A stretch of DNA of 64,000 nucleotides from Tubiluchus corallicola (Eukaryota; Animalia; Priapulida), in NCBI GenBank assembly GCA_030141605.1, contig JAQGDQ010000108.1, positions 310,001 through 374,000 of the forward strand, written 5' to 3'. The position numbers and the translations under genes were made by a program. Positions within the stretch are counted from its first letter, which is position 1, and every line of letters begins with the position of its first letter. This document shows, one piece after another, positions 14,407 to 53,693 of this stretch. The notes beneath the pieces were generated by a model. That model searched no databases, was not told where the DNA came from, and was given only the letters and a program-made list of their open reading frames with translations.

Positions 14407-14479
14407 ATGGCGGGTAATTACTTTAAGCCGCTACTCCCAGTTTTCATGACCTGGCTGTTTTTTGCTTGTGACGTTGAAG
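14407..14479 (+). CDS. Signal peptide exon (MAGNYFKPLLPVFMTWLFFACDVEG)
   Basis: gacATGG start context, hydrophobic core, strong AG|gtaagc phase-1 donor compatible with exon 16932. Confidence 0.8.
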
Positions 14480-21020: not shown

Positions 21021-24000
21021 CTTTATTTAAAGTCGGCTTTTGGGTCAACAATTAACATTAGCTCAAAGAGCTATTATCGCCGACTGTAAATAACTACCTA
21101 CAACTACATAACAGAGACTATTATTACCCCACTTTTACCCTAAATAAATCAGACTTCTAGCGTCATAGCAAGGTACATGCAGGCTTCGGCTACGACAAGT
21201 TTTCTAATAAAGTTTCGTTATTTTGACATAGGGTTTGGGCTGGCATAGTGCAACCTGTTAATCACAGCGATTTCATGTTCCTATATGATTCAGAAGTTGT
21301 GTCAGATTTCAGCACTAACCCAATTTATATTGGTCTCAACCCAAATGGTGAGTTTATCATTTTACGAAGTTAATACTTACTAGGGGGCAATTTATATACA
21401 TAGTCATCATTGCTAGATGATAGGCAAGTTTTTCAAATTGACAACTTAAAAATAGCTGAATTTTTAAAACCAGTTGGTATATGCTGATATTTTCTAATTT
21501 CGTTTAGCAGGAATTGGTGGGCTTATAACACTTAAATATATTAATTTGAATTTTTTGGTAGAATACCTTCTTAAACCTCATATAAAACAGATCCCCAAGT
21601 TATTACCACAAACTGATAATTTCCATAAAATTGTCTTTACGTTACTATAAATACGGATTAGCAACAAGCACATACTGAGTGATCTACACAACTAATTGGA
21701 TTATTTATTTTGAAAAATTTTAAATCTGAAATCTTCGTGGTTTAAACAATATTAATCAGTAATTTGTAATTTTAATGCCAAGACTATCATTAATGATGGC
21801 ATAAACCACAATTAATTAAATTTTGATGCCAATCTCATAATGTGAAAAGTTTGAAACACAGGATTTGAAACCAGGCACCTTCGACTTGCAAGGCCAAGTT
21901 TATCCCCAAGAAAAATCCCTAGGAAACATGGTAGCCTAGTATCGCGTTGTCTATACTAGTAAGAGTACTAAGATAGTAATCTTATCTTTGTGGATGTCGA
22001 AGGTCCCTGGTTCATGTCCAGACCGTGTTCCAACTTTTCACATTTCTCGCTTTTCTAGTTTTGTACCGAAATTTAATTAATTTTAGGTTGACATTTACGT
22101 TATAAATAACTGATTTATTGTCCACAGAAATTTCAGGCAAAGAAATAATTAGCGCAAATAAATAGAACAAATAAATTACTCATGAAATTTACTCACTGTT
22201 CAGTTAACGTGAAGAGACAATTGTTTAATGCTTACTGCACTACTTTTTATTGTATGTCCACTTGGAGACATTTTTATTCTTACAATCTTAGCAAACTCAA
22301 GGTTGCATATAATGTATCAACACGGAAGCTGTTTAACTTTTCATATGATACGAGCGCTAGATATATTTCTACTAGACTTAATATTATTTATTTTGATGTT
22401 ATTCACAGAAAATGTGCATACAGTTTATACGTCAGGCTGAATAAGAGTGAAAATTTTATATGTAAGAACATTTTAAACAGTGATGCAAACTTTACTTCTG
22501 TAATTAGACGTCATTGGCGTAGGTTGTTATATCGTTAATTGTTATTTGTGTTATTGTTGTGTGTCATGATTTATTGTATTATTTGTATTAATTTGTGATG
22601 TGTATATGAACTTTGTGAAGTTTGAAATAAAATATTAAATCTAAATCTAAATCTAATTAAAAGAAAATCATCTAATTAGTTCAAATCACTCTAGCTTGAG
22701 AAATCTAACTTTGGAAATGTTGAAAAGGTTGACCAGCTGAAAATGATAAACTTTGCACTGCCACAATAACTAGGAAAACGTAGTGCTTTGGCGTCAACCT
22801 TGTAAGCCAAAGGTCCTTGGTTCAAATTTAGGCTGTGCTCTAAATTTCCTGTCTTTCGAGTTTGGTATTAAAATTCAATTAATTGTGTGTTAGTGCCATC
22901 AAAACCGGGTTTCGCATCAAAATATAATTAATTATGGGTTTGCGCTTATTATCAGAAATCACGAGCAAACTATTTAAATTCTAGGGCGCGTAAAGAGTTT
23001 TTTCTTATATTTAAGAAAGTTAGTTTACCTAATTATAATTAATTTGCTAACTTAACAGACTGTGTGTACATAAACAAAGCGGATAGTTCAAAACTTTATG
23101 GAATACCTGATTGTGAATATACACAGTTGGACGCCATTTGCGAAATGCGGCTGCCTCAGACTCGTAAGTACTATTTAATAAACAAAATCGCTACGCTTAC
23201 ACATGATATTCTTCTATTAGTTTTTACGTTATTTGTACTTTGTTTTTATTGACTAAATGAGATGACTTGTTACCAATAATGCTCAAAAATTCTGCAGGTT
23301 TTTGTTTTAAAAGGACAGAAGACATGAAATGCTGAATTACTTGTGTAAATCTAATTAATTACTTTTATTTATCACGAAAGAAAATAAACTATTTTCTAAT
23401 TGTGCAGCAAAATTATATAACATAAAATTATCATCATCATGTAAACATTGAATGATCAATTTAAACAACTACATACCAATAGGTTTATTTCTATAGTTGC
23501 CAAAAAAATTCCAGTTTTGTGCTGATATTTAAAAACACTTTTGCACTGCTTAGATCATAGCAACTGTGCAGGAACGTCATCAGAATATGATGGCAATGAT
23601 AAATGTCTAGTGAACGTCAATGAAAACGGTGACTACCAGGCTGCTCTAACCGAATGCAGAAATCAAGGAATGGAATTATACAGCATGTCTTCTATCCATT
23701 CTGCTTGGAGAATTTTCTCTCTTGGATGGTATGATTATATCTACATTCATTTGCGATAATTACAGTCAGTACTTAAAGCCAAATGCAACCAGACAGTTTT
23801 AAGACAAAAAACAAGATGTGTGGCACTTGAAAAAAGGCCAATGCTCACTGTTCTTTTTAGTGCGTGTAATAATGTTTAACCTGACAGAACTAGGGGTGAG
23901 CATCGAACGTTCGAGTTCGAACGTTCGAATCGAATTCGAACGCTCGAATTCGATTCGAACGAGTTTTTTAGTTCGAACTCGATTCGAATCCAAAACTATA

Positions 24001-27000
24001 GATTGGAATAATTCAGCACTTCAATCACACATATTCTTTATCACTAAAACGATTGAAACATCATGCAATTAGCATAATTTAGCCGTGATTTCTGCACACA
24101 ATTTTAAAGAAATTACTAGTCGTTTTATTGCAGAACAAAATCTAGTGATATGCATGATCTTTATAAAACTAATTTTTGCTGGTGGTTCGAAAACTTGTTC
24201 GAAAATCTTTCGATCTCAATTCGAATTCGGTTCGAATTCGAAACGCTGAAGTTCGGTTCGATTCGAATTCGAAAGTCACAAATTCGGTTCGATTCGAATT
24301 CGCTTTCTGGTAGAGAATGCTCACCCCTAGACAGAACTGTAAACAAATTACAGCGTGGAATAATTTCAATATAAATTGCAAAAGAGCTCTACCCCATTGA
24401 CACGATATAATGTGTCTATTTTAATTGGGCTAGGCGATAGGCCTATAGGCATCATAAACACAGTTAACTTACAAAATTAAATTCCATTACTTTTCTAAAT
24501 GTCTTTTGTAATTTATTCTAAAATTCACATTAAACTAATTGCGGTGGTTTGGTCGGCTTTTTTGGTTGGTTTATTTGCTTTTTTAGGAAACTCACATGTA
24601 TATTATTTTTCACTAATTTTAAAAATTTAGATTAGCTTTTTCAGTTTACAAATAATTTGTTCCCAAAAATGTGTTCCGTGTCTGAACCAAGAAGCTGTAT
24701 ATACATTATGTTTTAAGAACGCACAAAGCTTATAAAAAGTGTAAAATGTAGATAATAAATTAAAGACTTTATGTGACATTCTGTCACAATTTTGCTATAT
24801 ACGACTCTCATAGCAGAATATAACACACGAGATTCAAACATTCCTAACCAAAATTATTCACCAGTACATGTATAAGCCTCAAGAAAGTTTAGTCATTTAA
24901 ATGCCTCTTCTTAGTCCTCTACGTTACTACTTTTCAATGAATCAACTTAATTATTTCGGGCACTTCTAGGTATAATCCAAAGGACTTTTGGATTTCGGCT
25001 AGATTCAATGATCAGACGGGGCATTATGAATATCCAAATGGCAACAGCATAGGCTATTACAATCCTCAACAGAACCTCATTGTGTGGACAGGATTTACAC
25101 GATGGCTGAACGATGAACACTGGCCAACCATGTCAAGCAGTGGTAGTCTTTTTGAGGTGATTTTTATATTTTGCTGTCATTCATTCGACTCCCTTGGTTT
25201 TACTTTGCTTCTAATGGAATCAAAATGAAACAACAACAGCCAGTGCAGCAAATTATTTTTGAATTCAACTTTAATGAAACATACAGTTTTTCTTTGAAAA
25301 AAAATATGAGAAATAATTTAGTATATTTTAAAATACGAAATCCATAGTAATAGGTAACTAGCCAAAACCTGCAAAAATGTTGCCCATAAACCCACAATGA
25401 CAAACCATACCACTTCCACCACACCCACCACAGCACTCCACCAACATTACGCTCAACACATCACCCATAACACACCACACCCACCACACTACACCAATAC
25501 CACCCAAAACACATCACTCTACAACACAATACATCATCCTCACCACACGACACCATCCCACACCCACTACATCATACGGTGATGGGGTCTAGGGTTGCTA
25601 GATTAGAAAATTAGAAATACGGGACACTCCTAAAATATCTCTATATATTACTGTATTTATAACCTACACACCCAGACTATTATACCATATATAAAAGTGG
25701 AAAACTTAAAGCAGGGATTTTAATAGGTTATGAGAAAAACAAAAGTAAGCCCACAGTAGCTTTTGTTGAAGCAAAATTATACACAGAGTACAATAGAATG
25801 ACCCCAGAACAATGGCTTTGCGTCAGCAGTACTCCAAGCGAGAATCGCCCAAAAATGGAACCTCAACAAAAATGTAATCAACTCGTCGCAGCTCCTCTTG
25901 GTAGAGTGGTCCTAAAAGGTCGTCCTTTTTCAAAGAGCTATACATCTCGTTCTGAAAGCTCACCAGGTGCCACGAGAACTTTTTCCTGTGGTGTTTTCTG
26001 TCAAAAAAATGTTTTCTTTTCGAAAAAATCGGGTAGCTGGGTCCGGGAAAACGCCCTTGCGGGACGTCGTGAATTCTAAATACGCCTGCTACTCCCACCA
26101 TTGAACGGGCTATATGCAACCACTATCAGCACCATGCCTAGCTCATTCCCATTCTCTAGAAATAAGAAGTATAATTTTGCAAAAAAACTGCCTGAGTAAT
26201 CCACCACTTCGCCAGCTATCTTTTCGCCAGTCTACTTTTTCGGTAGTCTACCCTTTCGCCAATCTACCATTTCAATGTCGCGCGTTGGGTTTCGTTCGAA
26301 ATGCCAGAAAATGGCAATAAATAGGATGGCCGGTCGAAAATTTGACATTCAGAATCTGCTGTTTACGTTCTGCGATGTTTAGTTTCCGAGATACGCATCT
26401 TTTTTAAATAACTCAAAAACTAGACAGAGCTACTCCACCAAATTTGGTGTGCTTATAGCTAACATGGAGAGCCACTTTTTGCTATAATTTCATAATTTCA
26501 TGTCGTGATATTTTGAAAAAGTTCCTGAGTTAGTTATGATCCAAAAATCGTCAAAATTCATCTATTTTTGAGAAACAATTTCTCCTACAAGAAGCGCCAC
26601 CTAACAAAATGGTTATGAGTGGTGATTGTCCGATCAATTCCCTATCAGTAGTGCGCCACATAGCCGCCACCGCCAGAGGGCTGCCACACTACACCCATTT
26701 TTCTGGGTCCATGTCGGTACCATACTTATACTTATATATAGCTGATAGCAACATGGTTTCCTTCAAACGCTCCCGTAAGTCATGCAGAGACGGACCACAT
26801 GTCATTGGATTCGCAATAAAACGTTGAATAAGATGCGCTATGCTGAAAATTTTTCCTCTTTTTCGTTTAACCGAAATAACCAAAATTTGGCAAATTGCAT
26901 AAACGAGATCTTTCCTTTATTATATGAGACGACGGTGTCTATATGACCAAATTGGGAATCCATTTCTCTTGAAGAAAACCTTCCGGTATCACGTGGCTAA

Positions 27001-28378
27001 CACTCGAAATAGAGACGTCCTTGTCTAGAACCTAGATGACACGTTAGCAAGTCTAGCAGCTATTGGGACCACGGGATACTAATTTTTCTGTGCCTCACCA
27101 GAATTACTTCTTTAGATTAGAATCACGTGTCACTCATGACAAAAGCTCCACCGGAGAGCATGGAGACACGTGGTGGTAGTCCAACCAATTCTCTATTCGA
27201 CCATGTGCTATGCAGCTGCCACCTGGAAACGGTTTCCGCCTTGTATACCGTTTTACTAGGCCACGTCGGTATCATATTTAAAATTTAAAACTTATGACAA
27301 TAAAATCCCACATTTTCAAATTTGGGAAACAGTAACTCTTGAAAGAAGCCATTTTGAATCACGTGGTTAACAATGAAAGTAGAACTGTCATTGTGCTACT
27401 AGTACAAAAGAGTTGGTGTTTTTTGAATCCTGTTTATAGCCATTTTGTGGCTAAACGAAACGAAATTTTGGCGCAGTGTACCTGATACATCCAACTTTAT
27501 GGCCAATCGGATGATGTATTGTACACTCCTGTACGACTTACCTATGTTTACACAGCGTTTAAAGGAAAACATGTCGATACCTGCTATATGTGTCCCGACA
27601 TGTGTCCAGAAAAACGGGCCTAGCGTGGCAGCCCTGTAGCGGTGGCAGCTGTGCGGCACATCATTGATAGGGAATTGATAAACAATTATTGATAGACAAT
27701 CACAACTCGGCGCCATCTTGGTAGATGGGGCATCTTGTAGGAGTTAAGATTTATCAAACATAGGCATATTTTGACGATTTTTGGGTCATAACTCAAACGG
27801 GACAAAGAGTCACTCGAAATTATAAGCAAAAGCGGCCCTCTACGCTACACCAAATTTGGTGAAGTAGCTCTGCCTAGTTTTTTAGTTATTTAATAAAGAC
27901 GCGTATCTCGGAAACTGAATCAAAATAACAGCAGATTCTGAATGTCAAATTTTCCTATTTGGACATCCTATTTATTGCCATTTTCTGGCTATAGGAAACT
28001 AGACACGTGATTTTGACGCAGTGCATCAGATTCCACATTTTGTTGCGAATCCAATGATGTATGGCACACCTTTCTCTTTGGTTGTGCAAAAACTTGGTGG
28101 CCATTTTGTTTTCTGCATTTTAACCCTTTCCCCTAACTTTTCGGGCTTGCAACAGCTTGTTTTCTGATTCAGCATAGTCAATTTAATAAGACTAGCTATG
28201 TTATCCCCCTTTTAGCAAAAAAACGCTCATATGGTTCCTCTTTTCTGAAAATGGCCTAGACTATTTGAAACTTTGACTTGTTTGTTGTGCAGTACCGTCC
28301 ATATAATAGTTGTAAGTGGTACTTGTTTGTTATGTGGGATTTACATAGAAGCTGACTCACTAATTGTTCGTGCTGTGT

Positions 28379-28449
<71 letters not shown>

Positions 28450-31400
28450 GAATGCGCACTTTCCAAAAACTGAGAAATTTTAGCAATGGGCCCTCAAAAT
28501 CTGGTGCCCCTAAAAATGTGGCTCCCTAGGCAACAGCATAGTTAGCTTATTTATATATTCGCACCTGACGTCTTCTGAAACAACATTATGTGTGCATATC
28601 TACATTCCTCATGTAAGACAATTTTTAACTACTTGTGAAAATTTGCTAATCTACGTTAATCCACATATGTAATCCAGTTCGTGAGATGTAAAACATACAT
28701 CCAAAAACATGATATTTAAACTCCTATAACATAATTCATAGTTAGATATTATTTAAAATATCTTACTACCCTGATCAATTTTAAACAAGTGAGACTTATC
28801 TTTATTTACTGATGCCTGCAGGAAAAACTAAAATTCTTAATTTAAAATGCGTATTGTTTCAGGTTACAGTGACTGTTTACTTTTTACCAATTCTGGTTTT
28901 ATAATTATATAGGACGACAACTGTGTTACGATGAAAGCTGACGACCCTTACACCTGGTATGTCAACAAATGTGCAGACACATACCCTTTTGTCTGCGAGT
29001 ATGAAGCTAGTAAGTAGCTTTCTATAAATGAACTTTCATAAAACTACCTTTTATAATAGAAACGGACCTGTATATTGCGTCTTCTCATAATAATAACAAG
29101 TGCGATTAGACTATAGTCCAGGGAAAATAAGTTTAAGTGACATTCCACAAAGTTCTGAAACATAACCAGAGCATTTGTTGTACACACTTCACCAAACTAA
29201 GCAGTAGTATTAATTACATTATCTTGTCAGTACGATTAATAACATGTTTTGGGCGATTCATGTAGTGACTTCTTTGGTGCTCACCAAGAAAGCAAAATAG
29301 TAACATTTTGCTAGTTGGTGCAAATATTCTAAATTATTAAGAATTTTCTTTCTCTATTACATGTCTTCCAAGCAGATAAATGCAATGCTAACTGACATGA
29401 CTTTATAGAGAAAGACTTTTGAGACATGCTTTTAAAGTTCCCTTTTTTCTATATTAACATTTAATTGATAACTTACTATTCTACAATATTTTCAGCTGTT
29501 GAGTGTCCAGAGCTCGAACTCATACATGCTACCATAGAATTTGGACACAACACAGACTTTGACAACACAGTAATTGTCACTTGTCACCCAGGTTATACAT
29601 ACGAAGGCAGTTCTTACCACCTTATCTCATGTCAGGCTGATGGAAACTGGTCCCCAGAAAATTATGACTGTATTGGTAAAAAAGACTTAATCAATTATTG
29701 ATTTGTAATAACTAAATTATATGAAGCAACTGAGGTTTGTAGCTCAGCACTTTTTAGCCTTAAACAAGTAAATTACTGTTCATATCTCCCATTTTTACTG
29801 TGCCATATTTACAAAAATTGTTTTTGCTTCGAAAAGCAAAGCTGCAAAGGCAACAAAACAGTGGAAATCTTATAAGGCAAGAATGTAGATTACTTATAAA
29901 AAGTTAAAAAAATCAATTGAAATTTTGTACTGTCTTCATACTGTCTTAAAGCACACAGAAGTCGTATTAGCAGCAATGCTGTAAAACTTAGAAATTTATT
30001 CTCTCATGATGACTGGCTGGTGCAGCTATTTTGATGTTAAGCTGTATAAAACAAGTTTAGATAACATTCTACAAAGTTCGGAAGCATTACCAGAGCATTT
30101 GTCAAGTATACTTCATTAAATTAAACAGTACTGTTAATTACATTGTCTTGTAAGTACGTTTTATAACATGTTTTGGGAAAGTTATATGCAGTGACTTTTT
30201 AGTACACACTGAGAAAGTGAATAAATGACATTTTACCAGTACGTACAAACATTTTATATTATTAAGAAGTGATATAACTTCGTAAAGAAAGAACTTTGAG
30301 GCATACTTTTAAAATGTCTTTTCTGCCACATGATTTGATAACTTACTATTTTACAATATTTTCAGCTGTTGAGTGTCCAGAGCTCGAGCTCACACATGCT
30401 ACCACAGAATTTGGACACAACACAGACTTTGCCAACACAGTAGTTGTCACTTGTCACCCAGGTTATACATACGAAGGCAGTTCTTACCACATTATCTCAT
30501 GTCAGGCTGATGGAAACTGGACACTAGAAAATTATGACTGTACTGGTAAAAAAGACTTAATCAATAATTGGTTTGTATTAACTAAAGTATATGAAACAAC
30601 TGAGGTTTGTAGCTCAGCACTTAATAGCCTTAAACAAGTAAATTACGTTTACATTTCACATTTTTACTGTACCTTACATAAAAAAATTGTTTATGCTTTG
30701 AAAAGCAAAGCTGCAAAGGCAACAAAGACAGTGGAAAACTTATAGGGCAAGAATGTAGATTACTTTTAAAAAGCTAAAAAATCAATTGACATTTCTACTT
30801 ACCTTCATACTGTCTTATTGCACATGGAGCTCGTATTAACAGCAATGCTGTGAAACTTGAAAATTTATTCTCTCGTGATGACTGGCTGGTGCAGCTAATT
30901 TGTTGGTAAGCCATATAAAACAAATTTAAATAACATGTCTACAAAGTTCGGAAGCATTACCAGAGCATTTGTCATGCGTACTTCGTTAAACTACGCAGTA
31001 CTGTTAATCACATTATCTTGCCAGTACTATTTATTATAAGTTTTGGGAGAGTTATATGCGGTGACTTTTTGGCACACACTGAGAAAGTGAAAAAGTAACA
31101 TTTTACCAGTATGTGCAAACATTTTAAATTTTTAAGAATGTTATTTTTCAGTTACGTATGCCTTTCAAACTAATAAAAATAATGCTAACTGATATAACTT
31201 TGTAAAAAAAGAATTTTGAGATATACTTTTGCATTGTCTTTTCTTCCACATGATTTGATAAGTTACTATTCTATGATATTTTCAGCTGTTGAGTGTCCAG
31301 AGCTCGCGCTCACACATGCTACTACAGAAGGTGGATACAACAGAGAGTTTAACAACACAGTATTTGTCACTTGTCAGGAAGGTTACACATATGAAGGAAG

Positions 31401-34400
31401 TCCTGGCCATTCTATTTCATGTCAGATTGATGGAAACTGGACACCAGAAAATTATGACTGTACTGGTAAATAAGGCTTAGTCAATTATTGGTTTGTATTA
31501 ACTAAATTCTATAAAGCAACTGAGGTTTGTAGCTCAGCACTTAATAGCCTTAAACAAGTAAATTACTGTTTATATCTCACATCTTTACTGTACCATATTT
31601 ATAAAAATTGTTTATGCTTTGAAAAGCAAATCTGCAAAGGCAACAAAGACTGTGGAATACTTATAGGGCAAGAATGTAGATTACTTATAAAAAGCTAAAA
31701 AATCAATCGACATTTGTACTCTCTTACTGCACATGGAACTCGTATTAGCAGCAATGCTGTAAAACTTGAAAATTTATTCTCTCATGATGACTGGCTGGTG
31801 CAGCTATTTTAATGCTAAGCTATGTAAAACAAGTTTAAATAACATTCTACAAAGTTCGGAAGCATTACCAAAGCATTTGTCATGCGTCCTTCGTTAAATT
31901 AAGCAGTACTGTTAATCACATTATTTTGCCAGCACTATTTATTACAAGTTTTGGGAGAGTTATATGCGGTGCCTTTTTAGTACACACTGAGAAAGTGAAA
32001 AAGTAACATTTTACAGTACGTGCAAACATTTTAAATTTTTAAGAATGTTCTTTTTCAGCTACTTATGCTTTCCAAACTAATAGAAATAATGCTAACTGAT
32101 ATAATTTTGTAAAAAAAGAATTTTGAGATATACTTTTACATTGTCTTTTCTTCCACATGATTGGATAAGTTACTATTCTATGATATTTTCAGCTGTTGAG
32201 TGTCCAGAGCTCGCGCTCACACATGCTACTACAGAACCTGGATACAACAGAGAGTTTAACAACACAGTATTTGTCACTTGTCAGGAGGGTTATACATATG
32301 AAGGAAGTCCTGGCCATTCTATTTCATGTCAGATTGATGGAAACTGGACACCAGAAAATTATGACTGTACTGGTAAATAAGGCTTAGTCAATTATTGGTT
32401 TGTATTAACTAAAGAATATGAAGCAACTGAGGTTTGTAGCTCAGCACTTAATAGCCTTAAACAAGTAAATTACTGTTTATATCTCACATGTTTACTGTAC
32501 CATATTTATAAAAATTGTTTATGCTTTGAAAAGCAAATCTGCAAAGGCAACAAAGACTGTGGAATACTTATAGGGCAAGAATGTAATTTACTTATAAAAA
32601 GCTAAAAATTCAATAGACATTTGTACTTACCTTCATACTGTCTTATTGCACATGGAACTCGTATTAGCAGCAATGTTGTAAATCTTGAAAATTTATTCTC
32701 TCATGATGACTGACTGGTGCAGCTATTTTGATGTTAAGCTATATAAAACAAGTTTAAATAACATTCTACAAAGTTCGGAAGCATTACCAAAGCATTTGTC
32801 ATGCGTCCTTCGTTAAATTAAGCAGTACTGTTAATCACATTATTTTGACAGCACTATTTATTACAAGTTTTGGGAGAGTTATATGCGGTGCCTTTTTAGT
32901 ACACACTGAGAAAGTGAAAAAGTAACATTTTACCAGTACGTGCAAACATTTTAAATTTTTAAGAATGTTCTTTTTCAGCTACGTATGCTTTCCAAACTAA
33001 TAGAAATAATGCTAACTGATATAACTTTGTAAAAAAAGAATTTTGAGATACACTTTTACATTGTCTTTTCTTCCACATGATTGGATAAGTTACTATTCTA
33101 TGATATTTTCAGCCGTTGAGTGTCCAGAGCTCGCGCTCACACATGCTACTACAGAACCTGGATACAACAGAGAGTTTAACAACACAGTATTTGTCACTTG
33201 TCAGGAGGGTTATACATATGAAGGAAGTCCTGGCCATTCTATTTCATGTCAGATTGATGGAAACTGGACACCAGAAAATTATGACTGTACTGGTAAATAA
33301 GGCTTAGTCAATTATTGGTTTGTATTAACTAAAGAATATGAAGCAACTGAGGTTTGTAGCCCAGCACTTAATAGCCTTAAACAAGTAAATTGCTGTTTAT
33401 ATCTCACATTTTTACTGTACCATATTTATAAAAATTGTTTGTGCTTTGAAAAGCAAATCTGCAAAGGCAACAAAGACAGTGGAAAACTTATAGGGCAAGA
33501 ATGTAGATTACTTATAAAAAGCTAAAAAATCAATCGACATTTGTACTTACCTTCATACTGTCTTATTGCACATGAAACTCGTATTAGCAGCAATGCTGTA
33601 AAACTTGAAAATTTATTCTCTCATGATGACTGGCTGGTGCAGCTAATTTGTTGGTAAGCCATACAAAACAGTTTAAATAACATTCTACAAAGTTCGGAAG
33701 CATAACCAGAGCATTTGTCATGCGTACTTCGTTAAATTAAGCAGTACCGTTAATCACATTATTTTGCCAGCACTATTTATTACAAGTTTTGGGAGAGTTA
33801 TATGCGGTGACTTTTTAGTACACACTGAGAAAGTGAAAAAGTAACATTTTATCAGTATGTGCAAACATTTTAAATTTTTAAGAATGTTATTTTTCAGTTA
33901 CGTATGCTTTCCAAACTAATAAAAATAATGCTAACTGATATAACTTTGTAAAAAAAGAATTTTGAGTTATACTTTTAAATTGTTTTTTCTTCCACATAAT
34001 TTCATAAGTTACTATTCTATGATATTTTCAGCTGTTGAGTGTCCAGAGCTCGTGCTCACACGTGCTACTACAGAACCTGGATACAACAGCGAGTTTAACA
34101 ACACAGTATTTGTCACTTGTCAGGAGGGTTATACATATGAAGGAAGTCCTGGCCATTCGATTTCATGTCAGATTGATGGAAACTGGACACCAGAAAATTA
34201 TGACTGTACTGGTAAATAAGGCTTAGTCAATTATTGGTTTGTATTAACTAAATTCTATGAAGCAACTGAGGTTTGTAGCTCAGCACTTAATAGCCTTAAA
34301 CAAGTAGATTGCTGTTTATATCTCGCATTTTTACTGTACCATATTTATAAAAATTGTTTATGCTTTGAAAAGCAAAGCTGCAAAAGCAACAAAGACTGTT

Positions 34401-37400
34401 GAAAACTTATAGGGCAAGAATGTAATTTACTTATAAAAAGCTAAAAATTCAATAGACATTTGTACTTATCTTCATACTGTCTGATTGCACATGGAACTCG
34501 TATTAGCAGCAATGCTGTAAAACTTTAAAATTTATTCTCTCACGATGACTGGCTGGTGCAGCTAATTTGTTGGTAAGCCATACAAAAAAGTTTAAATAAC
34601 ATTCTACAAAGTTCGGAAGCATAACCAGAGCATTTGTCATGCGTACTTCGTTAAATTAAGCAGTACTGTTAATCACATTATTTTGCCAGCACTATTTATT
34701 ACAAGTTTTGGGAGAGTTATATGCGGTGACTTTTTCGTACACACTGAGAAAGTGAAAAAGTAACATTTTACCAGTACGTGCAAACATTTTAAATTTTTAA
34801 GAATGTTCTTTTTCAGCTACGTATGCTTTCCAAACTAATAGAAATAATGCTAACTGATATAATTTTGTAAAAAAAGAATTTTGAGATATACTTTTAAATT
34901 GTCTTTTCTTCCACATGATTTGATAAGTTACTATTCTATGATATTTTCAGCTGTTGAGTGTCCAGAGCTCATGCTCACACATGCTACTACAGAACCTGGA
35001 TACAACAGAGAGTTTAACAACACAGTAGTTGTCACTTGTCAGGAAGGTTACACATATGAAGGTAGTCCTGGCCATTCTATTTCATGTCAGATTGATGGAA
35101 ACTGGACACCAGAAAATTATGACTGTACTGGTAAATAGGGCTTAGTCAATTATTGGTTTGTATTAACTAAAGAATATGAAGCAACTGAGGTTTGTAGCCC
35201 AGCACTTAATAGCCTTAAACAAGTAAATTACTGTTTATATCTCACATTTTTACTGTACCATATTTATAAAAATTGTTTATGCTTTGAAAAGCAAATCTGC
35301 AAAGGCAACAAAGACTGTGGAATACTTATAGGGCAAGAATGTAGATTACTTATAAAAAGCTAAAAAATCAATCCACATTTGTACTTACCTTCATACTGTC
35401 TTATTGCACATGGAACTCGTATTAGCAGCAATGTTGTAAATCTTGAAAATTTATTCTCTCATGATGACTGACTGGTGCAGCTATTTTGATGTTAAGCTAT
35501 ATAAAACAAGTTTAAATAACATTCTACAAAGTTCGGAAGCATTACCAGAGCATTTGTCATGCGTCCTTCATTAAATTAAGCAGTACTGTTAATCACATTA
35601 TCTTGCCAGTACTATTTATTACGAGTTTTGGGAGAGTTATATGCGATGACTTTTTCGTACACACTGAGAAAGTGAAAAAGTAACATTTTACCAGTACGTG
35701 CAAACATTTTAAATTTTTAAGAATGTTCTTTTTCAGCTATGTATGCTTTCCAAACTAATAAAAATAATGCTAACTGATATAACTTTGTAAAAAAAGAATT
35801 TTGAAATATACTTTTACATTGTCTTTTCTTCCACATGATTGGATAAGTTACTGTTCTATGATATTTTCAGCCATTGAGTGTCCAGAGCTCGCGCTCACAC
35901 ATGCTACTACAGAACCTGGATACAACAGAGAGTTTAACAACACAGTAGTTGTCACTTGTCAGGAAGGTTACACATATGAAGGTAGTCCTGGCCATTCTAT
36001 TTCATGTCAGATTGATGGAAACTGGACACCAGAAAATTATGACTGTACTGGTAAAAAAGGCTTAGTCAATTATTGGTTTGTATTAACTAAATTCTATGAA
36101 GCAACTGAGGTTTGTAGCCCAGCACTTAATAGCCTTAAACAAGTAAATTGCTGTTTATATCTCACATTTTTACTGTACCATATTTATAAAAATTGTTTAT
36201 GCTTTGAAAAGCAAAGCTGCAAAAGCAACAAAGACTGTGGAAAACTTATAGGGCAAGAATGTAATTTACTTATAAAAAGCTAAAAATTCAATAGACATTT
36301 GTACTTACCTTCATACTGTCTTATTGCACATGGAACTCGTATTAGCAGCAATGCTGCAAAACTCGAAAATTTATTCTCTCATGATGACTGGCTGGTGCAG
36401 CTAATTTGTTGGTAAGCCATACAAAACAGTTTAAATAACATTCTACAAAGTTCGGAAGCATAACCAGAGCATTTGTCATGCGTACTTCGTTAAATTAAGC
36501 AGTACTGTTAATCACATTATTTTGCCAGCACTATTTATTACAAGTTTTGGGAGAGTTATATGCGGTGACTTTTTACTACACACTGAGAAAGTGAAAAAGT
36601 AACATTTTATCAGTATGTGCAAACATTTTTAATTTTTAAGCATGTTATTTTTCAGTTACGTATGCTTTCCGAACTAATAAAAATAATGCTAACTGATATA
36701 ACTTTGTAAAAAAAGAATTTTGAGTTATACTTTTAAATTGTTTTTTCTTCCACATGACTTCATAAGTTACTATTCTATGATATTTTCAGCTGTTGAGTGT
36801 CCAGAGCCCGCACTCACACATGCTACTACAGAACCTGGATACAACAGAGAGTTTAACAACACAGTATTTGTCAGTTGTCAGGAGGGTTATACATATGAAG
36901 GAAGTCCTGGCCATTCTATTTCATGTCAGATTGATGGAAACTGGACACCAGAAAATTATGACTGTACTGGTAAATAAGGCTTAGTCAATTATTGGTTTGT
37001 ATTAACTAAATTCTATGAAGCAACTGAGGTTTGTAGCTCAGCACTTAATAGCCTGAAACAAGTAGATTGCTGTTTACATCTCACATTTTTACTGTACCAT
37101 ATTTATAAAAATTGTTTATGCTTTGAAAAGCAAATCTGCAAAGGCAACAAAGACTGTGGAAAACTTATAGGGCAAGAATGTAATTTATTTATAAAAAGCT
37201 AAAACTTCAATAGACATTTGTACTTACCTTCATACTGTCTTATTGCACATGGAACTCGTATTAGCAGCAATGTTGTAAATCTTGAAAATTTATTCTCTCA
37301 TGATGACTGACTGGTGCAGCTATTTTGATGTTAAGCTATATAAAACAAGTTTAAATAACATTCTACAAAGTTCGGAAGCATTACCAGAGCATTTGTCATG

Positions 37401-40400
37401 CGTCCTTCATTAAATTAAGCAGTACTGTTAATCACATTATCTTGCCAGTACTATTTATTACGAGTTTTGGGAGAGTTATATGCGATGACTTTTTCGTACA
37501 CACTGAGAAAGTGAAAAAGTAACATTTTACCAGTACGTGCAAACATTTTAAATTTTTAAGAATGTTCTTTTTCAGCTATGTATGCTTTCCAAACTAATAA
37601 AAATAATGCTAACTGATATAACTTTGTAAAAAAAGAATTTTGAAATATACTTTTACATTGTCTTTTCTTCCACATGATTGGATAAGTTACTGTTCTATGA
37701 TATTTTCAGCCATTGAGTGTCCAGAGCTCGCGCTCACACATGCTACTACAGAACCTGGATACAACAGAGAGTTTAACAACACAGTATTTGTCACTTGTCA
37801 GGAGGGTTATACATATGAAGGAAGTCCTGGCCATTCTATTTCATGTCAGATTGATGGAAACTGGACACCAGAAAATTATGACTGTACTGGTAAATAAGGC
37901 TTAGTCAATTATTGGTTTGTATTAACTAAATTCTATGAAGCAACTGAGGTTTGTAGCTCAGCACTTAATAGCCTGAAACAAGTAGATTGCTGTTTACATC
38001 TCACATTTTTACTGTACCATATTTATAAAAATTGTTTATGCTTTGAAAAGCAAATCTGCAAAGGCAACAAAGACTGTGGAAAACTTATAGGGCAAGAATG
38101 TAATTTATTTATAAAAAGCTAAAACTTCAATAGACATTTGTACTTACCTTCATACTGTCTTATTGCACATGGAACTCGTATTAGCAGCAATGTTGTAAAT
38201 CTTGAAAATTTATTCTCTCATGATGACTGACTGGTGCAGCTATTTTGATGTTAAGCTATATAAAACAAGTTTAAATAACATTCTACAAAGTTCGGAAGCA
38301 TTACCAGAGCATTTGTCATGCGTCCTTCATTAAATTAAGCAGTACTGTTAATCACATTATCTTGCCAGTACTATTTATTACGAGTTTTGGGAGAGTTATA
38401 TGCGATGACTTTTTCGTACACACTGAGAAAGTGAAAAAGTAACATTTTACCAGTACGTGCAAACATTTTAAATTTTTAAGAATGTTCTTTTTCAGCTATG
38501 TATGCTTTCCAAACTAATAAAAATAATGCTAACTGATATAACTTTGTAAAAAAAAGAATTTTGAAATATACTTTTACATTGTCTTTTCTTCCACATGATT
38601 GGATAAGTTACTGTTCTATGATATTTTCAGCCGTTGAGTGTCCAGAGCTCGCGCTCACACATGCTACTACAGAACCTGGATACAACAGAGAGTTTAACAA
38701 CACAGTATTTGTCACTTGTCAGGAGGGTTATACATATGAAGGAAGTCCTGGCCATTCTATTTCATGTCAGATTGATGGAAACTGGACACCAGAAAATTAT
38801 GACTGTACTGGTAAATAAGGCTTAGTCAATTATTGGTTTGTATTAACTAAATTCTATGAAGCAACTGAGGTTTGTAGCTCAGCACTTAATAGCCTTAAAC
38901 AAGTAGATTGCTGTTTATATCTCGCATTTTTGCTGTACCATATTTATAAAAATTGTTTATGCTTTGAAAAGCAAAGCTGCAAAAGCAACAAAGACTGTGG
39001 AAAACTTATAGGGCAAGAATGTAATTTACTTATAAAAAGCTAAAAATTCAATAGACATTTGTACTTACCTTCATACTGTCTGGTTGCACATGGAACTCCT
39101 ATTAGCAGCAATGCTGTAAAACTTGAAAATTTATTCTCTCATGATGACTGGCTGGTGCAGCTATTTTGATGTTAAGCTATGTAAAACAAGTTTAAATAAC
39201 ATTCTACAAAGTTCGGAAGCATTACCAGAGCATTTGTCATGCGTACTTCGTTAAACTACGCAGTACTGTTAATCACATTATCTTGCCAGTACTATTTATT
39301 ACGAGTTTTGGGAGAGTTATATGCGATGACTTTTTCGCACACACTGAGAAAGTGAAAAAGTAACATTTTACCAGTACGTGCAAACATTTTAAATTTTTAA
39401 GAATGTTCTTTTTCAGCTATGTATGCTTTCCAAACTAATAAAAATAATGCTAACTGATATAATTTTGTAAAAAAAGAATTTTGAGATATACTTTTACATT
39501 GTCTTTTCTTCCACATGATTTGATAAGTTACTATTCTATGATATTTTCAGCTGTTGAGTGTCCAGAGCTTGCGCTCACACATGCTACTACAGAACCTGGA
39601 TACAACAGAGAGTTTAACAACACAGTATTTGTCACTTGTCAGGAGGGTTATACATATGAAGGAAGTCCTGGCCATTCTATTTCATGTCAGATTGATGGAA
39701 ACTGGACACCAGAAAATTATGACTGTACTGGTAAATAAGGCTTAGTCAATTATTGGTTTGTATTAACTAAATTCTATGAAGCAACTGAGGTTTGTAGCCC
39801 AGCACTTAATAGCCTTAAACAAGTAAATTGCTGTTTATATCTCACATTTTTACTGTACCATATTTATAAAAATTGTTTATGCTTTGAAAAGCAAATCTGC
39901 AAAAGCAACAAAGACTGCTGAAAACTTATAGGGCAAGAATGTAATTTACTTATAAAAAGCTAAAAATTCAATAGACATTTGTACTTACCTTCATACTGTC
40001 TTATTGCACATGGAACTCGTATTAGCAGCAGTGTTGTAAATCTTGAAAATTTATTCTCTCATGATGACTGGCTGGTGCAGCTATTTTGATGTTAAGCTAT
40101 ATAAAACAAGTTTAAATAACATTCTACAAAGTTCGGAAGCATTACCAGAGCATTTGTCATGCGTCCTTCATTAAATTAAGCAGTACTGTTAATCACATTA
40201 TCTTGCCAGTACTATTTATTATGAGTTTTGGGAGAGTTATATGCGATGACTTTTTCGTACACACTGAGAAAGTGAAAAAGTAACATTTTACCAGTACGTG
40301 CAAACATTTTAAATTTTTAAGAATGTTCTTTTTCAGCTATGTATGCTTTCCAAACTAATAAAAATAATGCTAACTGATATAACTTTGTAAAAAAAGAATT

Positions 40401-43400
40401 TTGAAATATACTTTTACATTGTCTTTTCTTCCACATGATTGGATAAGTTCCATTTCATGTCAGATTGATGGAAATTGGACACCAGAAAATTATGACTGTA
40501 CTGGTAAATAAGGCTTAGTCAATTATTGGTTTGTATTAACTAAATTCTATGAAGCAACTGAGGTTTGTAGTTCCGTGCTTCGTAGTCTTAATCAAGCAAA
40601 TTACTCTTCGTGTCTCACATTTTTTACCATGCCATTTGTTTAAAGATTGTTGATGGTTCAAAATACAAAGCTGAAATGGTAACAAAGACAGTGGAAATTT
40701 TATTCGGTAATATAACTCTTTACTTACAAAAAGCTAAAATCAACCCAATTTGGCTTCCATTTTCTAGGTGGCTGGCAATATGACTGGTGTTATAGTTTTT
40801 TATCTTGCACGCAGACAAGATGACGATTTTGGTGTCTAAGTATATGTTTTCAAGGTCAACGAATGTCTAGCTGATGGTTAAAATGCCTGATGGTGCCAAA
40901 ATATTTGCAGTCTCTTGTATATTCATATTAGCTATATGGCATGTTCTCTCTAAGGCACATAAGAAGATTTTAGTATCTATACATAGGCTATAAAGGATTT
41001 TGGGTACTCTGCAATATGGCTTAAATTTTGACAATGCTTTTACCTCATTAAAAGCATTATTTGCATCTTTAAGAAACATTACTAGAGCTGAACAGGTGGC
41101 TGAACTCAATGCCTGTACTCCTACATTTTGTTATTTTGTTTTACTGCTGTGTGACAAAGCACGCAAAGACTTTTTTACATGAAAGGGAAGGTCAATGAAG
41201 GCAATTCCTCCAACATGTACCGCACTATTGTAGCACAACAGAGTGCTGTTGAGATGGCTAAAGATGTTGTTTGTACCAGCATTGTTTGTACTAGCATTGG
41301 GGCTGAAAGAGATCCACTGGTGTGACATGGGGACCACAATGGACACGCAACCTGAAGCATTTCAACAACATATTAAATGTTGCTGCGTGCCAAAGGTACC
41401 CTGAGAGATGTAAATGTTTCCAAGTAAATTTCGCCTACACAACTACAAACGTATTGGTTAACGGGACAGAATGTAGACCCACAAGGATCTATAAATTCTG
41501 ACTTGATCTGTTTGTTTTTCTTATTGTTGACTTCCGTAACAGACCCCTTAAAAGAATGTGCGATATGAATGCCTGACATTACTGATATTCTTACTGTTTA
41601 ATATGAATAACAATAGCAATACTGCCCTAAATCGTCGAACTTTAAAGCCTGTATCTAGATGCTAAAATCATCGTTCTGCTTCCTGTAGAACAAACAATGT
41701 GCCTAATACTTTACATAAGCGACTGCAGCCATCTTGAAAACTGTTTTAAATGCTAAACAGGTGATGTTATAGGTCTTTTTCAGCATCAGCTGTGGATTCC
41801 TTCGAAAATTTTGAAAAACAACATTTTAGACACCAAAATCATCATCTTATCTGCTTTAACAGCTAAGATGTGATCTTTACATGCAAGCGACAGCAAATCT
41901 TGTCATCTTTATGGTAGCAGTCATATTGCAGGAATTTTGATTGACCCCGTATGCAGCATTAATCACCTTGACGAGTTTTAGCATTGTGCAAAGTTTTATA
42001 GCATTTACGTGGAATAAGTAATTTTTCGCTATTCTGCTGTTCTAGATGTCGGGAACGTGGCGGCAGCCATTTAAACACAAACAACACGACAATATCGTAC
42101 CAATGTTGTCGCATATTTTTGCAAATATGGATACCATATGGAAATGTGGACTTGCCACACATTGCACCAATAATGTTTGTCAATATGTGTAAACCATGTG
42201 TTCCAATACTGGGCGATAATATTAGTCCAATGGTGTACCAGTATTGGACAAAATCATTCTATGTGGTACGAGCAATATTTTCTAATCATATTTTTTGTCA
42301 GAATCCTGACAAGATCGTGACTATGCAGTGACAATCTTGTGTGCATAGTGTGATCAAAATAATTTATTTTTGTTTTTATAATTAATCTTTAGATAAAACA
42401 GCTAATATAAGTGCATGATTGGTATAAGTTCGTTTTGTATGACATAGACATACACGTAGACATAGACAGACAAAATTTAATGGGCGACAATTTATGGCGG
42501 CCATTTTTGAAACGAAAGTAACTGAACTGGTGGCTTAGGCCCTGGTAACTTGGAGTAGATGTTGTAGTCGCTTTTTTGATACTATTTGTCCTGGAATTTC
42601 TTTTGATTTGTATAATTTGTCCCAAAACTTGGCAGCCATTATGCTTTTTTCGCATTTTTGGCCCTTTTCCACTAATAATTCTAGCTGGGAACAGTTTCTT
42701 TCAAATTCAGCGCAGTTAGATTGATTACACTAATTATGTTGCCTGCTTTTAGAAAAAACATTGGTACCAATATTGTCACAATATTCTTAAAATATTTTCA
42801 AAAATATTGGTACAATTTTGTGACAAGTCCACATTTCCATATTTATTGTCCCATTTATTGTCTATTGAATATGTTACGCACTATGCCTTTTAACAATGAA
42901 GATGCCTCCATGATGTTTCTTCCAAGATTAACTTTTGTAAATCACCACGGCTTTATTGCAGTGAAGCAGTGTCCAGTTATCACTGGACTACTTAACGCAG
43001 TACCAATGTCTATGGAAAGAAGCTATGGTGATGAGGTTTCTATAAAATGTCTACCGGGGTTTAGCTATGAAAATAGAGAAACTACCATGTTGATTACTTG
43101 TGGCATGGATGAGTTATGGAATCCACCTATTGAAGATTGTATCGGTATGCCGTTGTTTTGAATGTTAACATCACAATATTACATTTTATAGAGACCGTAA
43201 ACTGAATTGGTCAAATATCGTTGCACTTGTCATAAAAAGTATTGCAAACGACATAACACTTTGCGTAACAGTTATAGTGAGTTACTGGACAGTAATTGAG
43301 GTTTTCTGCTACACTGTACTCCATTCTATTTTTTCCATTCTGTTCTGTAATGTTCTGTCCTGTTTCTTCCTGTCCTTTTCTGCTCTCTGTTATGTTTTGT

Positions 43401-43602: not shown

Positions 43603-46600
43603 TGTGTGCGCGCGCACGCGTTCTTTTTCTTCCCCCTGCTAAGGCACAATTTACTTCGATTCTTTTTCATACCCGTTATTAAGCTTTGGTATTATATAGT
43701 ATTAAATTTTGAAAGTAAAAATTATTTAGCGCAAACTTGGATTTTTATAATTATGGACAATACCGTATATTGCGTTTAGAAAAGAAAAATAAACGGCTAC
43801 AGAAGTAATTTAAAACTGTTAAAAATTATTCATATTGTTAATATTTCAACTCTCCTTCAATATTATACATTAACTATCGGTTTAAAAGGGAAACTTCAAC
43901 AAAATCACATTAAAAAAACAACAATCGTTTCATTGGTACGATCTTAGGAGAAATGTACAGTGTTTCCGAGTGTTGAATGTTGACACTTACACAGGAACAA
44001 TAATAACTTTTTTAGTTTTGTTTAATTCAGGTAAAAAATGCTACAGTCTGGATGAAACTTATAATGCTGTGTGGAATTACACGCTAGACAATGAACCACC
44101 TCAGAATACATATGTTATGGTACGTAACTATATAGTCTCTGTGCAATATTTTGTTCAGTGTAATCTTATTTGATAGCTTGTTTCAGCATGATATCCGCAA
44201 ATAAAAGTGAAACAAAAACAGGCTTGGATACAAATGTAAGTTTCTCGAGCAATCGATTCTTTGCAAGCCGGTAACGGATCATTTTCATTAAATTTCTGGA
44301 CCAAAAGCAACAATAATATCTTTTCGCCAAACAGTTGCTGTTTTGGATATCCCACTTACATTTTATTTGGACCAGATATCTCCATCATTTATCCATGTTC
44401 TGGCTTGGAGAAATACTTTCATAGAATGAAATACAGAAATACACAAACATCAGTTGTGGGAACTAACACCAAGTTCTGGATGTCGCCGTAAGACATCTAA
44501 GAGTGGTAAGACATCCATGTTGAGATCTGCACAGAGGGGTGTCCTTTCTTCTTTGTTTTGAACCAGAGACGCCCAGGAGGCACACTAAGCTGGTTCAAAA
44601 CCCATTATGACTTAGCACTATTTTGACAATAGCAGTTTTTGATAGTTCAACGCCCGAGTGTTCCAATGCTGCCTGCTTTTAAACTGCTATTCCTGTAACT
44701 CGATGAAGATTTTATTTTTGCTGATTTCATTGCAGAGAAAGTTTTCTTTTCATGTTAAACGATTTTGTCTCCCCTGAAACCGCTCACCTTGCGCCCATTT
44801 GTGGTCCAACAAAAGATACGGACTTGGTGGTATAGCTATGTCAAGATGGGTCATGATGAAATTATGATGAATCAGCATAACTCCTGGCTATCTTTCTTCA
44901 TAGCAGGGAAAAAATGCAACTAAAGCACAAGCTATGAGACACTGGTAATCTCTGTTCAGATGTCGAACAAAATAACTGAACGTGCTTACGTTCATAGCAT
45001 ATCACACAACATCCAGGCTTTTTGATATAAGTAAAGGAACACTATTGAAGAAAATGCATTCAGCAATGATTAGAGAACTGTTTGAAAGTTATTGGCAAAG
45101 TTTTTGTTAGAAGAAAAACTCGATTTCTTGGGCAATGTGCGAATCGGCGTTTGGTGGCCGTTTTGAAATCAGGTTAATTTCGGCGTTAGAACTATATAAG
45201 ATTTTTTTAATTATAAGCAGTAAAGCTTGGCCTAACCCAACAATGTAAAGTGATTATTTAAACAATGCTTATTCTGTCAAATTGACGAGAACAGAGAAAA
45301 TCAAATGAGACAGACGGAAATTGAGGAAGTAAGAGATCATTGTAGGTCGTGTGAGTGGTTAATTATCTTTGCTTTAATATTAATCTTTTTATTGTTCATA
45401 AACAGAAGTAAAGCTGATTAACTTTTAAATAGGTAACATGTAATGAAGGTTATGATATAAGTGGTAATCGCAAAACACAATACAGTTATTGCTCACCATA
45501 TGAGTTCACCTGGACACCAGAAATTGAAAAATGCGCAGGTAAATAAATGTCCGTTTGTTAATAACTTTTTTATGTAGTTAATGTAAATTCAATTTTCAAC
45601 TTATCACAACTGCAAAATTTTACTACCTTTCTATTTTTTCTTGTGTTTTGAGTTGAAATTAAAACTATTTAATCTTAGAACTTTTAATGTCACTAGAAGT
45701 GTTTGATGTGACCGTTTCAAAAATGTTCAAATTACTGAAAAGGAACTAGCGGAACTTAGTTTTAACAGCTATTTAAAAAGAACTGCTTCTTTACTTCAGT
45801 TTTCTTACACTTTCTTTAGTGACTTTCTGCATTGCTGTTAGATCAGTCACTCTATTAACTTGCTTTTTACAGAAATGGTTTGTGACCCATTCGGACAGAG
45901 GCATCGTGTTCACAGTGATAATGATGCATTTTTAACAACTGAACAGTTTTTCAACACTAGTCTAAACCTGCAATGTTATGAAGGGTGGTTGTTTTCAAAT
46001 GGTGCGGCAATGGCTTCCACGACTTGTGTTGATGAGCCACGTAGGTGGGAGCCTGCCTTTGCTGACGGATGTGACGGTTTGTTTATTGTGTACACATGAT
46101 ACAAGTTGTACATGGATAATAAAATTACTGAGATAATATTTACATACAAATCTGTTTACATTTCACCCGATAATGCTTTTTAATACTGTATCAGGCCTTT
46201 TTCTACCAACGTTTAACTCCAAATTAGGACAAAGGTCGTTACGTTATCAAGGTACATTGATCTGGAATGATCAAACACATACTTAAGAAAACTGCCATAT
46301 AAATCATTAAAAAGCAATATAAAAACATTTGACTGATATCTATAATAGAGCAGCAACATAATATTGATTTTAATTTCACCAATATTGGTTTTCTTTTTGC
46401 TTCTTTTTTCTCTGGTTAACAATTGCTATATTCATGCTTTTTTATTATGGTTGCATAAGATTTGATTTTTGCTTTGCATGAAATTTTGTTAACGCATAGA
46501 ATCTATTGATTTACATAATTAGTACAAAGTACATCAAATATATACTAATCTATGGTCAGAAACTTTATTTTCATATACATGAAGTGAGATAGTACAAAGC

Positions 46601-53692: not shown

Positions 53693-53693
53693 G

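What the first reader, a model, noticed from the sequence alone, without database searches (positions are those of the whole stretch)
29060..40740. Homogenised array of 12 frame-neutral CCP exons inside one lectin gene: a candidate variable-length stalk
Seen in sequence: twelve ~920-bp units, each a 180-nt phase-1/phase-1 Sushi exon plus an intron about as conserved as the exon. Units 4, 5, 11 and 12 encode identical peptides. Established: symmetric exons can be added, lost or skipped without a frameshift, and CCP number sets how far a lectin head reaches (selectins; complement receptor 1 length alleles). Inference: the array lets three lectin heads sit on a stalk of variable length, through allelic copy-number change (unequal crossover) and/or combinatorial exon skipping. 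That would be a diversification route for an invertebrate immune or adhesion receptor. I cannot name a described protein with this layout, but I have not searched.
Basis: partly seen in the sequence, partly recalled or inferred. Interest (0 to 1): 0.82.

Follow-up and report, generated by a model that had tools for sequence, protein, structure and literature searches.

The report
Under-counted repeat-exon stalk in lectin-like gene
An animal gene carries twelve near-identical copies of one domain-coding exon with its intron, and sequencing depth points to about four times as many copies as were assembled, so it likely encodes a very long spacer of changeable length behind three lectin-like domains, a new case of a mechanism already known from human genes such as LPA and DMBT1.

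Summary
In detail: twelve intact 180-nt phase-1/1 Sushi (CCP) exons at 870-921 bp spacing; peptides 4, 5, 11 and 12 are identical. They lie in a 28-exon open model: signal peptide, 3 C-type-lectin-like domains, 17 CCPs. New here: a dead 13th unit lacking its acceptor; mosaic units (768 of 1596 site pairs incompatible); and contigs of public runs in which the repeat core is 37-42 times the single-copy depth against about 9 copies in the window. The array is therefore no over-assembly; it is more likely under-assembled (about 40 units), or a longer allele or paralogue exists. A second sample carries an array variant absent from the window. Not supported: sugar binding (no EPN/QPD/WND motifs), a membrane anchor (none found), exon skipping (no RNA data). 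It works like a protein-coding exon VNTR (LPA KIV-2, DMBT1); CLECT+CCP proteins are known in bivalves. It is not a selectin. The scan earlier noted only a three-exon analogue (shark PAMR1). New variant of a known kind; moderate interest.

The parts
14407..14479 (+). Predicted first coding exon, signal-peptide-like
   Evidence: ATG, hydrophobic stretch, GT donor, joins in frame; signal peptide judged by eye
16932..17127 (+). CTLD1 exon a
   Evidence: PDB hit NKG2D E=4.6e-4; no Pfam hit
19273..19400 (+). CTLD1 exon b (W-T-G-L and W-K-W-E-D stretch)
   Evidence: Pfam Lectin_C E=0.0018, below curated cut-off
20007..20144 (+). CTLD1 exon c
   Evidence: no Pfam hit alone
20268..20469 (+). CTLD2 exon a
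   Evidence: Atlas 0.89 to clusters with 11% Lectin_C, lead only; no Pfam or PDB hit
21313..21347 (+). CTLD2 exon b (35 nt)
23059..23163 (+). CTLD2 exon c; the domain lacks the long-loop region
   Evidence: CTLD2 vs CTLD3 z=6.9, 0 of 500 shuffles; vs CTLD1 z=0.0
23554..23728 (+). CTLD3 exon a
24970..25156 (+). CTLD3 exon b
   Evidence: no true homologue found
28913..29009 (+). CTLD3 exon c
   Evidence: Pfam Lectin_C E=0.0089; single-copy depth 89.9 in X1
29124..40750 (+). Tandem array of about 920-bp exon+intron units (12 intact + 1 relic as assembled)
29496..29675 (+). CCP exon 1 (diverged edge type; single-copy in reads)
30366..30545 (+). CCP exon 2 (diverged edge type; single-copy in reads)
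31286..31465 (+). CCP exon 3
32193..32372 (+). CCP exon 4
33113..33292 (+). CCP exon 5
34032..34211 (+). CCP exon 6
34951..35130 (+). CCP exon 7
35871..36050 (+). CCP exon 8
36790..36969 (+). CCP exon 9 (start of a 760-bp stretch identical to unit 10)
37710..37889 (+). CCP exon 10
38631..38810 (+). CCP exon 11
39551..39730 (+). CCP exon 12
40450..40503 (+). Relic 13th exon: 147 nt missing (acceptor with 21 intron nt plus first 126 exon nt); donor kept
42962..43144 (+). CCP13 exon (unique; a second, diverged version exists in sample S1)
44031..44119 (+). CCP14 exon a
45433..45538 (+). CCP14 exon b
   Evidence: Sushi E=0.0015
45873..46076 (+). CCP15 exon
   Evidence: no Pfam Sushi hit; 21.1 bits on a profile of six other CCPs, 0 of 1000 shuffles reach it
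46977..47168 (+). CCP16 exon
49165..49362 (+). CCP17 exon, last exon identified; strong donor, but an in-frame stop lies two codons into the intron

Best explanation
The region is a tandem array of one frame-neutral CCP exon plus its intron inside a gene for a predicted extracellular protein with three C-type-lectin-like domains; the units are sequence mosaics of each other, likely kept alike and changed in number by unequal crossover and gene conversion, and the true array is likely about 40 units, of which the assembly shows 12. Steps: (1, shown) each unit adds 60 residues without changing frame. (2, shown) units 3-12 are 0.5-6% apart, patchwork-related, with diverged units at the 5' edge and a dead unit at the 3' edge. 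(3, shown as depth, inferred as copy number) the repeat core is 37-42 times the depth of the single-copy flanks. (4, inferred) all copies are spliced in by default, as their splice sites are nearly identical, so protein length follows DNA copy number. (5, inferred) the modules, each with 9 acidic against 1 basic residue, two N-glycosylation sequons and a 4-residue linker, form an extended, glycosylated rod that spaces the three head domains from the C-terminal CCP13-17 end; the heads probably bind protein rather than sugar through calcium.
For: Anatomy. Recombination: 768 of 1596 informative site pairs fail the four-gamete test, Rm 12; nearest neighbours switch along the unit and divergence does not rise with distance; 760-bp and 573-bp perfect internal matches. 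Depth: in run X1 ten contigs at window multiplicity 1 have depth 63-104 (mean 90), core contigs 3304 and 3807 where window 31-mer multiplicity is 8.6-8.7, ratio 4.3-4.9; runs X2 and X3 of the same sample give 33-47 copies, X4 of another sample about 26. Excess is strongest for unit-8 type (7.1x) and unit-9/10 type (6.5x) and weakest for unit-3/7 type (2.3x), i.e. where the window has its longest perfect duplications. Flank bins on both sides and units 1-2 are at single depth, and 18 of 18 X1-supported array substitutions among the rows shown are present in window units, which favours collapse of this same array. Function of the module kept: 12 of 12 exons open with 4 Cys; pN 1.8% against pS 5.0%. 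Precedent: DMBT1 transcript and protein length follow DNA copy number rather than splicing (PMC9038570, passages); references hold 6 LPA KIV-2 units against up to 40 per allele (PMC11201333, passages); P-selectin needs enough CCPs to work under flow (PMC2120654, abstract).
Against: Depth comes from contig means, which the tool warns are a weak copy-number measure; no long read spans the array. One search hid 31 of 71 variant rows. A second CCP13 version at single depth shows that another allele or paralogue exists in the sample and could hold the extra units. The deficit of amino-acid changes is not significant by segregating sites (10 of about 139 versus 85 of 704 intron sites, p=0.11). No transmembrane exon was found, so a membrane-anchored stalk is not established. 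No homologue was found to anchor function. The gene model rests on my own exon calls without RNA.
Confidence: 0.55

Rival explanations
1. The window's 12 units are correct for this haplotype, and the extra 30 or so copies lie on the other allele (or an unlinked paralogue) whose flanks are too diverged to map. That would be direct allelic length polymorphism, about 12 versus 30 units, in one individual.
For: Flank depth (about 90) is half that of the best-supported dispersed contigs (171-204), so the locus is heterozygous or hemizygous; a second CCP13 version with at least 13 substitutions in 87 nt is at depth 85-100. Window units are distinct mosaics rather than blurred consensus copies.
Against: That partner has no counterpart at 85-88% identity for the CTLD3c exon, unit 1 or the flanking introns, yet its array would have to share all 18 displayed variants with this haplotype.
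Confidence: 0.25
2. Combinatorial skipping of the symmetric exons is the main source of stalk-length diversity, as for the membrane-proximal exons of Botryllus fester-family receptors.
For: All 12 exons are phase 1/1, so any subset keeps the frame. Precedent: 26 of 38 FF genes splice out 1-3 extracellular exons, moving the Ig and Sushi region relative to the membrane (PMC12582321, passages).
Against: All units keep AG/GT with near-identical flanks and the two sampled acceptors score among the strongest in the gene (9.1 and 11.1, range 4.7-11.1); nothing marks them as alternative. For DMBT1, length variation once ascribed to splicing proved genetic.
Confidence: 0.1
3. The protein is secreted, ends just after CCP17, and serves as an acidic structural or avidity scaffold (matrix, mucus or mineral-associated); copy number sets valency or simply drifts, rather than setting reach from a cell surface.
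For: In-frame stop two codons into the intron after CCP17, AATAAA about 720 nt downstream; no convincing transmembrane exon among scanned acceptors; predicted pI 4.05 for the array; no sugar-binding motifs; pN/pS of 0.65-0.9 between units 1-2 and the rest fits loose constraint.
Against: The CCP17 donor scores 10.5, the highest of the 18 donors scored, so the gene may continue, possibly past the window. This rival changes the purpose, not the array mechanism.
Confidence: 0.3
4. The array is an assembly expansion artefact.
For: Units 9 and 10 share an intron identical but for one base in a homopolymer.
Against: Contigs from two samples hold the head-to-tail unit junction at high depth and more copies than assembled; units carry private differences, 24-782 private 31-mers each.
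Confidence: 0.02

Closest known systems
LPA kringle IV type 2 exon VNTR (human)
   Same: Tandem domain-coding units with introns, subtypes differing by exonic and intronic variants, degenerate flanking units, reference holding far fewer units (6) than alleles (up to 40) (PMC11201333, passages).
   Different: Unit is 5.6 kb with two exons and a kringle; here 0.92 kb, one exon, one CCP. Allelic variation is proven for LPA, only implied here.
DMBT1/SALSA SRCR array (human)
   Same: Innate-type extracellular protein whose domain number is set by an exon array; copy number determines transcript and protein length (PMC9038570, passages).
   Different: In DMBT1 the repeated domain is the ligand-binding one; here it is predicted to be a spacer behind CTLD heads, untested.
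Complement receptor 1 / CR2
   Same: Long CCP chains; best PDB matches of the unit-4 CCP; CR1 has 30 SCRs in long homologous repeats of 7 (PMC3168156, passages).
   Different: The duplicated unit is a 7-CCP block (its role in size alleles is recalled), there are no CTLDs, and the CCPs bind complement.
Selectins and bivalve 'type-A P-selectins' (CLECT or EGF + CCP)
   Same: CTLD N-terminal to a CCP chain; length matters for P-selectin (PMC2120654, abstract); CLECT+CCP proteins occur in Venerida (PMC9484242, passages).
   Different: Three CTLDs without Ca/sugar motifs, no EGF exon, at least 17 CCPs, no anchor found; the bivalve passages read describe gene-level tandem duplication, not homogenised exon arrays.
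Botryllus fester-family receptors; prawn Rlec lectins
   Same: Invertebrate precedents for variable-length linkers: exon skipping between Sushi and membrane (PMC12582321, passages), and 1-9 short repeats in a C-type lectin (PMC7536079, abstract).
   Different: FF uses 1-3 non-identical exons and Ig heads; Rlec repeats are 30-33 bp inside one exon. Neither is an array of whole-domain exons.

Membership tests
Protein-coding exon VNTR (LPA KIV-2 / DMBT1 type) | Head-to-tail units of domain exon plus intron with high identity in both | tested here: met
Protein-coding exon VNTR (LPA KIV-2 / DMBT1 type) | Frame-neutral units, all open | tested here: met
   12 of 12 exons 180 nt, phase 1/1
Protein-coding exon VNTR (LPA KIV-2 / DMBT1 type) | Signs of recombination among units and degenerate edge units | tested here: met
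   units 1-2 and relic 13
Protein-coding exon VNTR (LPA KIV-2 / DMBT1 type) | Unit number differs between alleles or individuals | tested here: inconclusive
   Reads hold 4-5 times the assembled copies; S1 about 33-47, S2 about 26 with noisy baseline; one variant only in S2
Protein-coding exon VNTR (LPA KIV-2 / DMBT1 type) | Units are transcribed and spliced into mRNA | not testable with these tools
   No RNA holder listed; X6 laid nothing
Selectin | One N-terminal Ca-dependent sugar-binding CTLD | tested here: not met
   Three CTLDs, no EPN/QPD/WND-type motif in the first 450 residues (motif set recalled, QPD also in PMC514892 passage)
Selectin | EGF domain between CTLD and CCPs | tested here: not met
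   CTLD3c exon joins CCP1 in frame across a 486-nt intron; no EGF-like ORF there
Selectin | Transmembrane segment and cytoplasmic tail | tested here: inconclusive
   None found by acceptor scan of 49365-51520 and 53110-63000, phase 1 only; gene may run on
C-type lectin-like domain superfamily | CTLD sequence pattern | tested here: met
   Weak per-exon hits, six Cys per domain and mutual similarity CT1-CT3 z=6.2, CT2-CT3 z=6.9; CT1-CT2 z=0.0. CTLD2 is the least secure
Sushi/CCP domain (PF00084) | Profile score above curated cut-off, four Cys and Trp | tested here: met
   Units 1, 2, 4, CCP13, 16, 17 above cut-off; CCP14b just below; CCP15 only by in-script profile

The most novel reading that the evidence does not exclude
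This animal carries a CCP-exon VNTR of about 40 units that makes a rod of 45 or more CCPs (some 160-190 nm if extended, module length recalled), as long as or longer than the CCP chains I recall, on strongly diverged haplotypes, with array variants turning over between individuals: an invertebrate-type counterpart of LPA/DMBT1 in which allele length tunes how far a recognition head reaches, under balancing selection.
Probability: 0.2. Interest if true: 0.72.

Novelty: new variant of a known kind. Interest (0 to 1): 0.45.

Why it matters
Exon-level VNTRs that set protein length are characterised mostly in human genes. A one-exon, one-CCP unit of only 0.92 kb behind three lectin-like heads would be a compact, testable case in another animal lineage of whether repeat number tunes reach or valency of an extracellular protein. 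It is also a practical warning: the assembled count of 12 is probably several-fold too low, so annotation of this protein's length would be wrong.

Tried and rejected
No whole genome is held, so paralogues could not be searched. Word-based protein searches found nothing for the unit-4 CCP (3 candidates), the ENaC-like ORF (6359 candidates) or an upstream exon (13 candidates); weak evidence only, and the organism's clade stays unknown. The HMMER search of cluster representatives with CTLD3 exon b gave 4 hits, all repeat-driven and unrelated. PDB search with CTLD2 exon a gave none. No RNA holder listed; the one RNA-labelled run laid no contig; run X5 of another sample laid only a dispersed repeat; none of these is evidence either way. 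No listed contig bridges the relic junction at 40449/40450 (most pieces hidden). A higher-order repeat period was looked for and not found in the assembled units. Positive selection between units 1-2 and 3-12: pN/pS below 1 and exon-versus-intron excess p=0.07, rejected. A missing long-loop exon in CTLD2 and a transmembrane exon were scanned for and not found. A cryptic acceptor in the relic would give a 40-nt frame-shifting exon. Ten literature searches listed no paper whose title or abstract describes a CTLDx3+CCPx17 protein or a homogenised single-CCP exon array; the library lacks most subscription papers, and the SpCRL search returned 0. PMC10855680 (passages) covers SRCR gene and exon expansion, not homogenised CCP arrays.
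Full report
Observation. Self-BLAST shows a tandem array from 29124 to about 40750 (93% identity over 10.4 kb at one-unit offset). Twelve 180-nt exons, each flanked by AG and GT and phase 1/1, are spaced 870-921 bp apart. The three units scanned match Pfam Sushi over the whole model; the unit-4 peptide also matches CR1, CR2 and beta-2-glycoprotein I in the PDB and Sushi clusters in the Atlas at 0.97. Peptides 4, 5, 11 and 12 are identical.

Gene. Joining 28 exons from 14407 to 49362, each boundary AG/GT, gives 1489 codons without a stop: signal-peptide-like start, three C-type-lectin-like domains, 12 array CCPs and five unique CCPs. This model is my own and has no RNA support. CTLD evidence is modest: Lectin_C hits below cut-off for 2 of the 7 CTLD exons scanned, NKG2D at E=4.6e-4, an Atlas lead at 0.89, six Cys per domain, and significant similarity CT1-CT3 and CT2-CT3 but not CT1-CT2. 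CTLD2 lacks the long loop. None has EPN, QPD or WND-type motifs (motif set recalled), so calcium-dependent sugar binding is unlikely. No EGF exon lies between CTLD3 and CCP1. After CCP17 there is a strong donor but no convincing downstream or transmembrane exon, and read-through stops two codons into the intron: secreted versus anchored is open.

Evolution of the units. Over all 66 pairs exon and intron diverge alike (6.9% and 6.1%); among units 3-12 the exon is 2.7% and the intron 4.3% apart, with pS 5.0% and pN 1.8%. So homogenisation acts on the whole unit and amino-acid sites look somewhat more constrained, though the segregating-site test is not significant (p=0.11). Units 1-2 are diverged edge copies. 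Of 1596 pairs of informative sites, 768 are incompatible with one tree, at least 12 recombination points; nearest neighbours change along the unit, and divergence does not grow with distance. Units 9 and 10 share 760 identical bases, and 35375-35947 equals 37214-37786. A 13th unit at 40450 has lost 147 nt including its acceptor. These are the expected marks of unequal crossover and gene conversion (established knowledge).

Reads. Four of six listed runs hold the stretch, from two samples. I laid two end stretches; all data are contigs. In X1, contigs match both unique flanks without a difference, and ten contigs of window multiplicity 1 have depth 63-104, mean 90, about half the 171-204 of the best-supported dispersed contigs. 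Core repeat contigs have depth 3304 and 3807, i.e. 37-42 single-copy equivalents (32-60 at the extreme baselines) where the window holds 8.6-8.7. X2 and X3 (same sample) give 47 and 33-37; X4 (other sample) about 26 on a noisy baseline of 2-6.6. Excess is 7.1x for unit-8 type, 6.5x for unit-9/10 type, 2.3x for unit-3/7 type and none for units 1-2. The array is thus real and under-represented. Of the 20 array substitution rows shown, 18 have X1 support and all 18 occur in window units; 31 of 71 rows were hidden. One row (40028) is at depth 37 of 46 in X4, absent from X1 and X2 rows and from the window: a single sign that arrays differ between samples. A second CCP13 version with at least 13 substitutions is at single depth in S1, with no counterpart for neighbouring introns, CTLD3c or unit 1 at 85-88% identity. 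The tool warns that contig depth is a weak copy-number measure; I used per-contig values against matched single-copy contigs, and no long read spans the array.

How it most likely works. Misaligned crossover within the array adds or removes whole 60-residue modules in frame; conversion keeps them alike; the assembler probably collapsed a near-identical middle. By default all copies are spliced in (inferred), so protein length follows allele. Modules 3-12 each have 9 acidic and 1 basic residue and two N-glycosylation sequons, with four residues between domains, which suits an extended spacer (inferred). Probabilities: array mechanism about 0.9; collapse of this haplotype about 0.6 versus a long partner allele or paralogue about 0.3; spacer role about 0.6; exon skipping as main diversifier about 0.1.

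Comparison. It works like LPA KIV-2 (6 units in references, up to 40 per allele; PMC11201333, passages) and DMBT1 (copy number, not splicing, sets length; PMC9038570, passages). CCP number as reach is shown for P-selectin (PMC2120654, abstract). CLECT+CCP proteins are reported in bivalves (PMC9484242, passages); variable stalks by exon skipping in Botryllus FF receptors (PMC12582321, passages); short-repeat variation in prawn lectins (PMC7536079, abstract); CR1 architecture from PMC3168156 (passages). No supplements were read. It fails the selectin tests. Ten paper searches listed no description of this layout, and sequence searches found no homologue, both weak negatives. The scan's own notes held one smaller analogue and nothing for this place or sequence.

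Verdict. Real, correctly observed, probably under-counted; a new variant of a known kind. Interest 0.45.

Noticed in passing
window 51528-53105 (-): Intronless 526-codon ORF of the ASC/ENaC-degenerin channel family (Pfam E=2.2e-37); no relative found by the word search.
   Followed up: partly
window about 56700-58160 (-): Second copy of that channel gene, 67% identical in DNA, broken by frameshifts and stops.
   Followed up: partly
window 4213-4425, 5321-5460, 7350-7454 (+): Exons that look like a class C GPCR of the GPR158/179 kind (resemblance recalled); the search with the first gave no hit.
   Followed up: partly
window 29316-29351 and the matching place in other units: A fragment of a very high-copy dispersed repeat sits in the unit intron (summed depth 57,777 in X1) and was amplified with the array.
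   Followed up: no
window 42955-43390: In run X4 the contig over CCP13 matches without difference at depth 23.7 while other unique contigs are at 2-6.6; unexplained.
   Followed up: no
window 42981-43067: A second CCP13 version with at least 13 substitutions at single depth in sample S1: a strongly diverged allele or paralogue.
   Followed up: partly
window 11782-13083: 57-bp minisatellite, 23 copies, 95% matches, upstream of the lectin-like gene.
   Followed up: no
window 26303-26771 and 27554-27989: Inverted repeat pair, 71% identical, in the intron before CTLD3c; possibly a non-autonomous transposon.
   Followed up: no
window 18993-19180 and 22327-22514: Two 97% identical fragments within an ORF piece that resembles the tail of a LINE reverse transcriptase (recalled, untested).
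   Followed up: no
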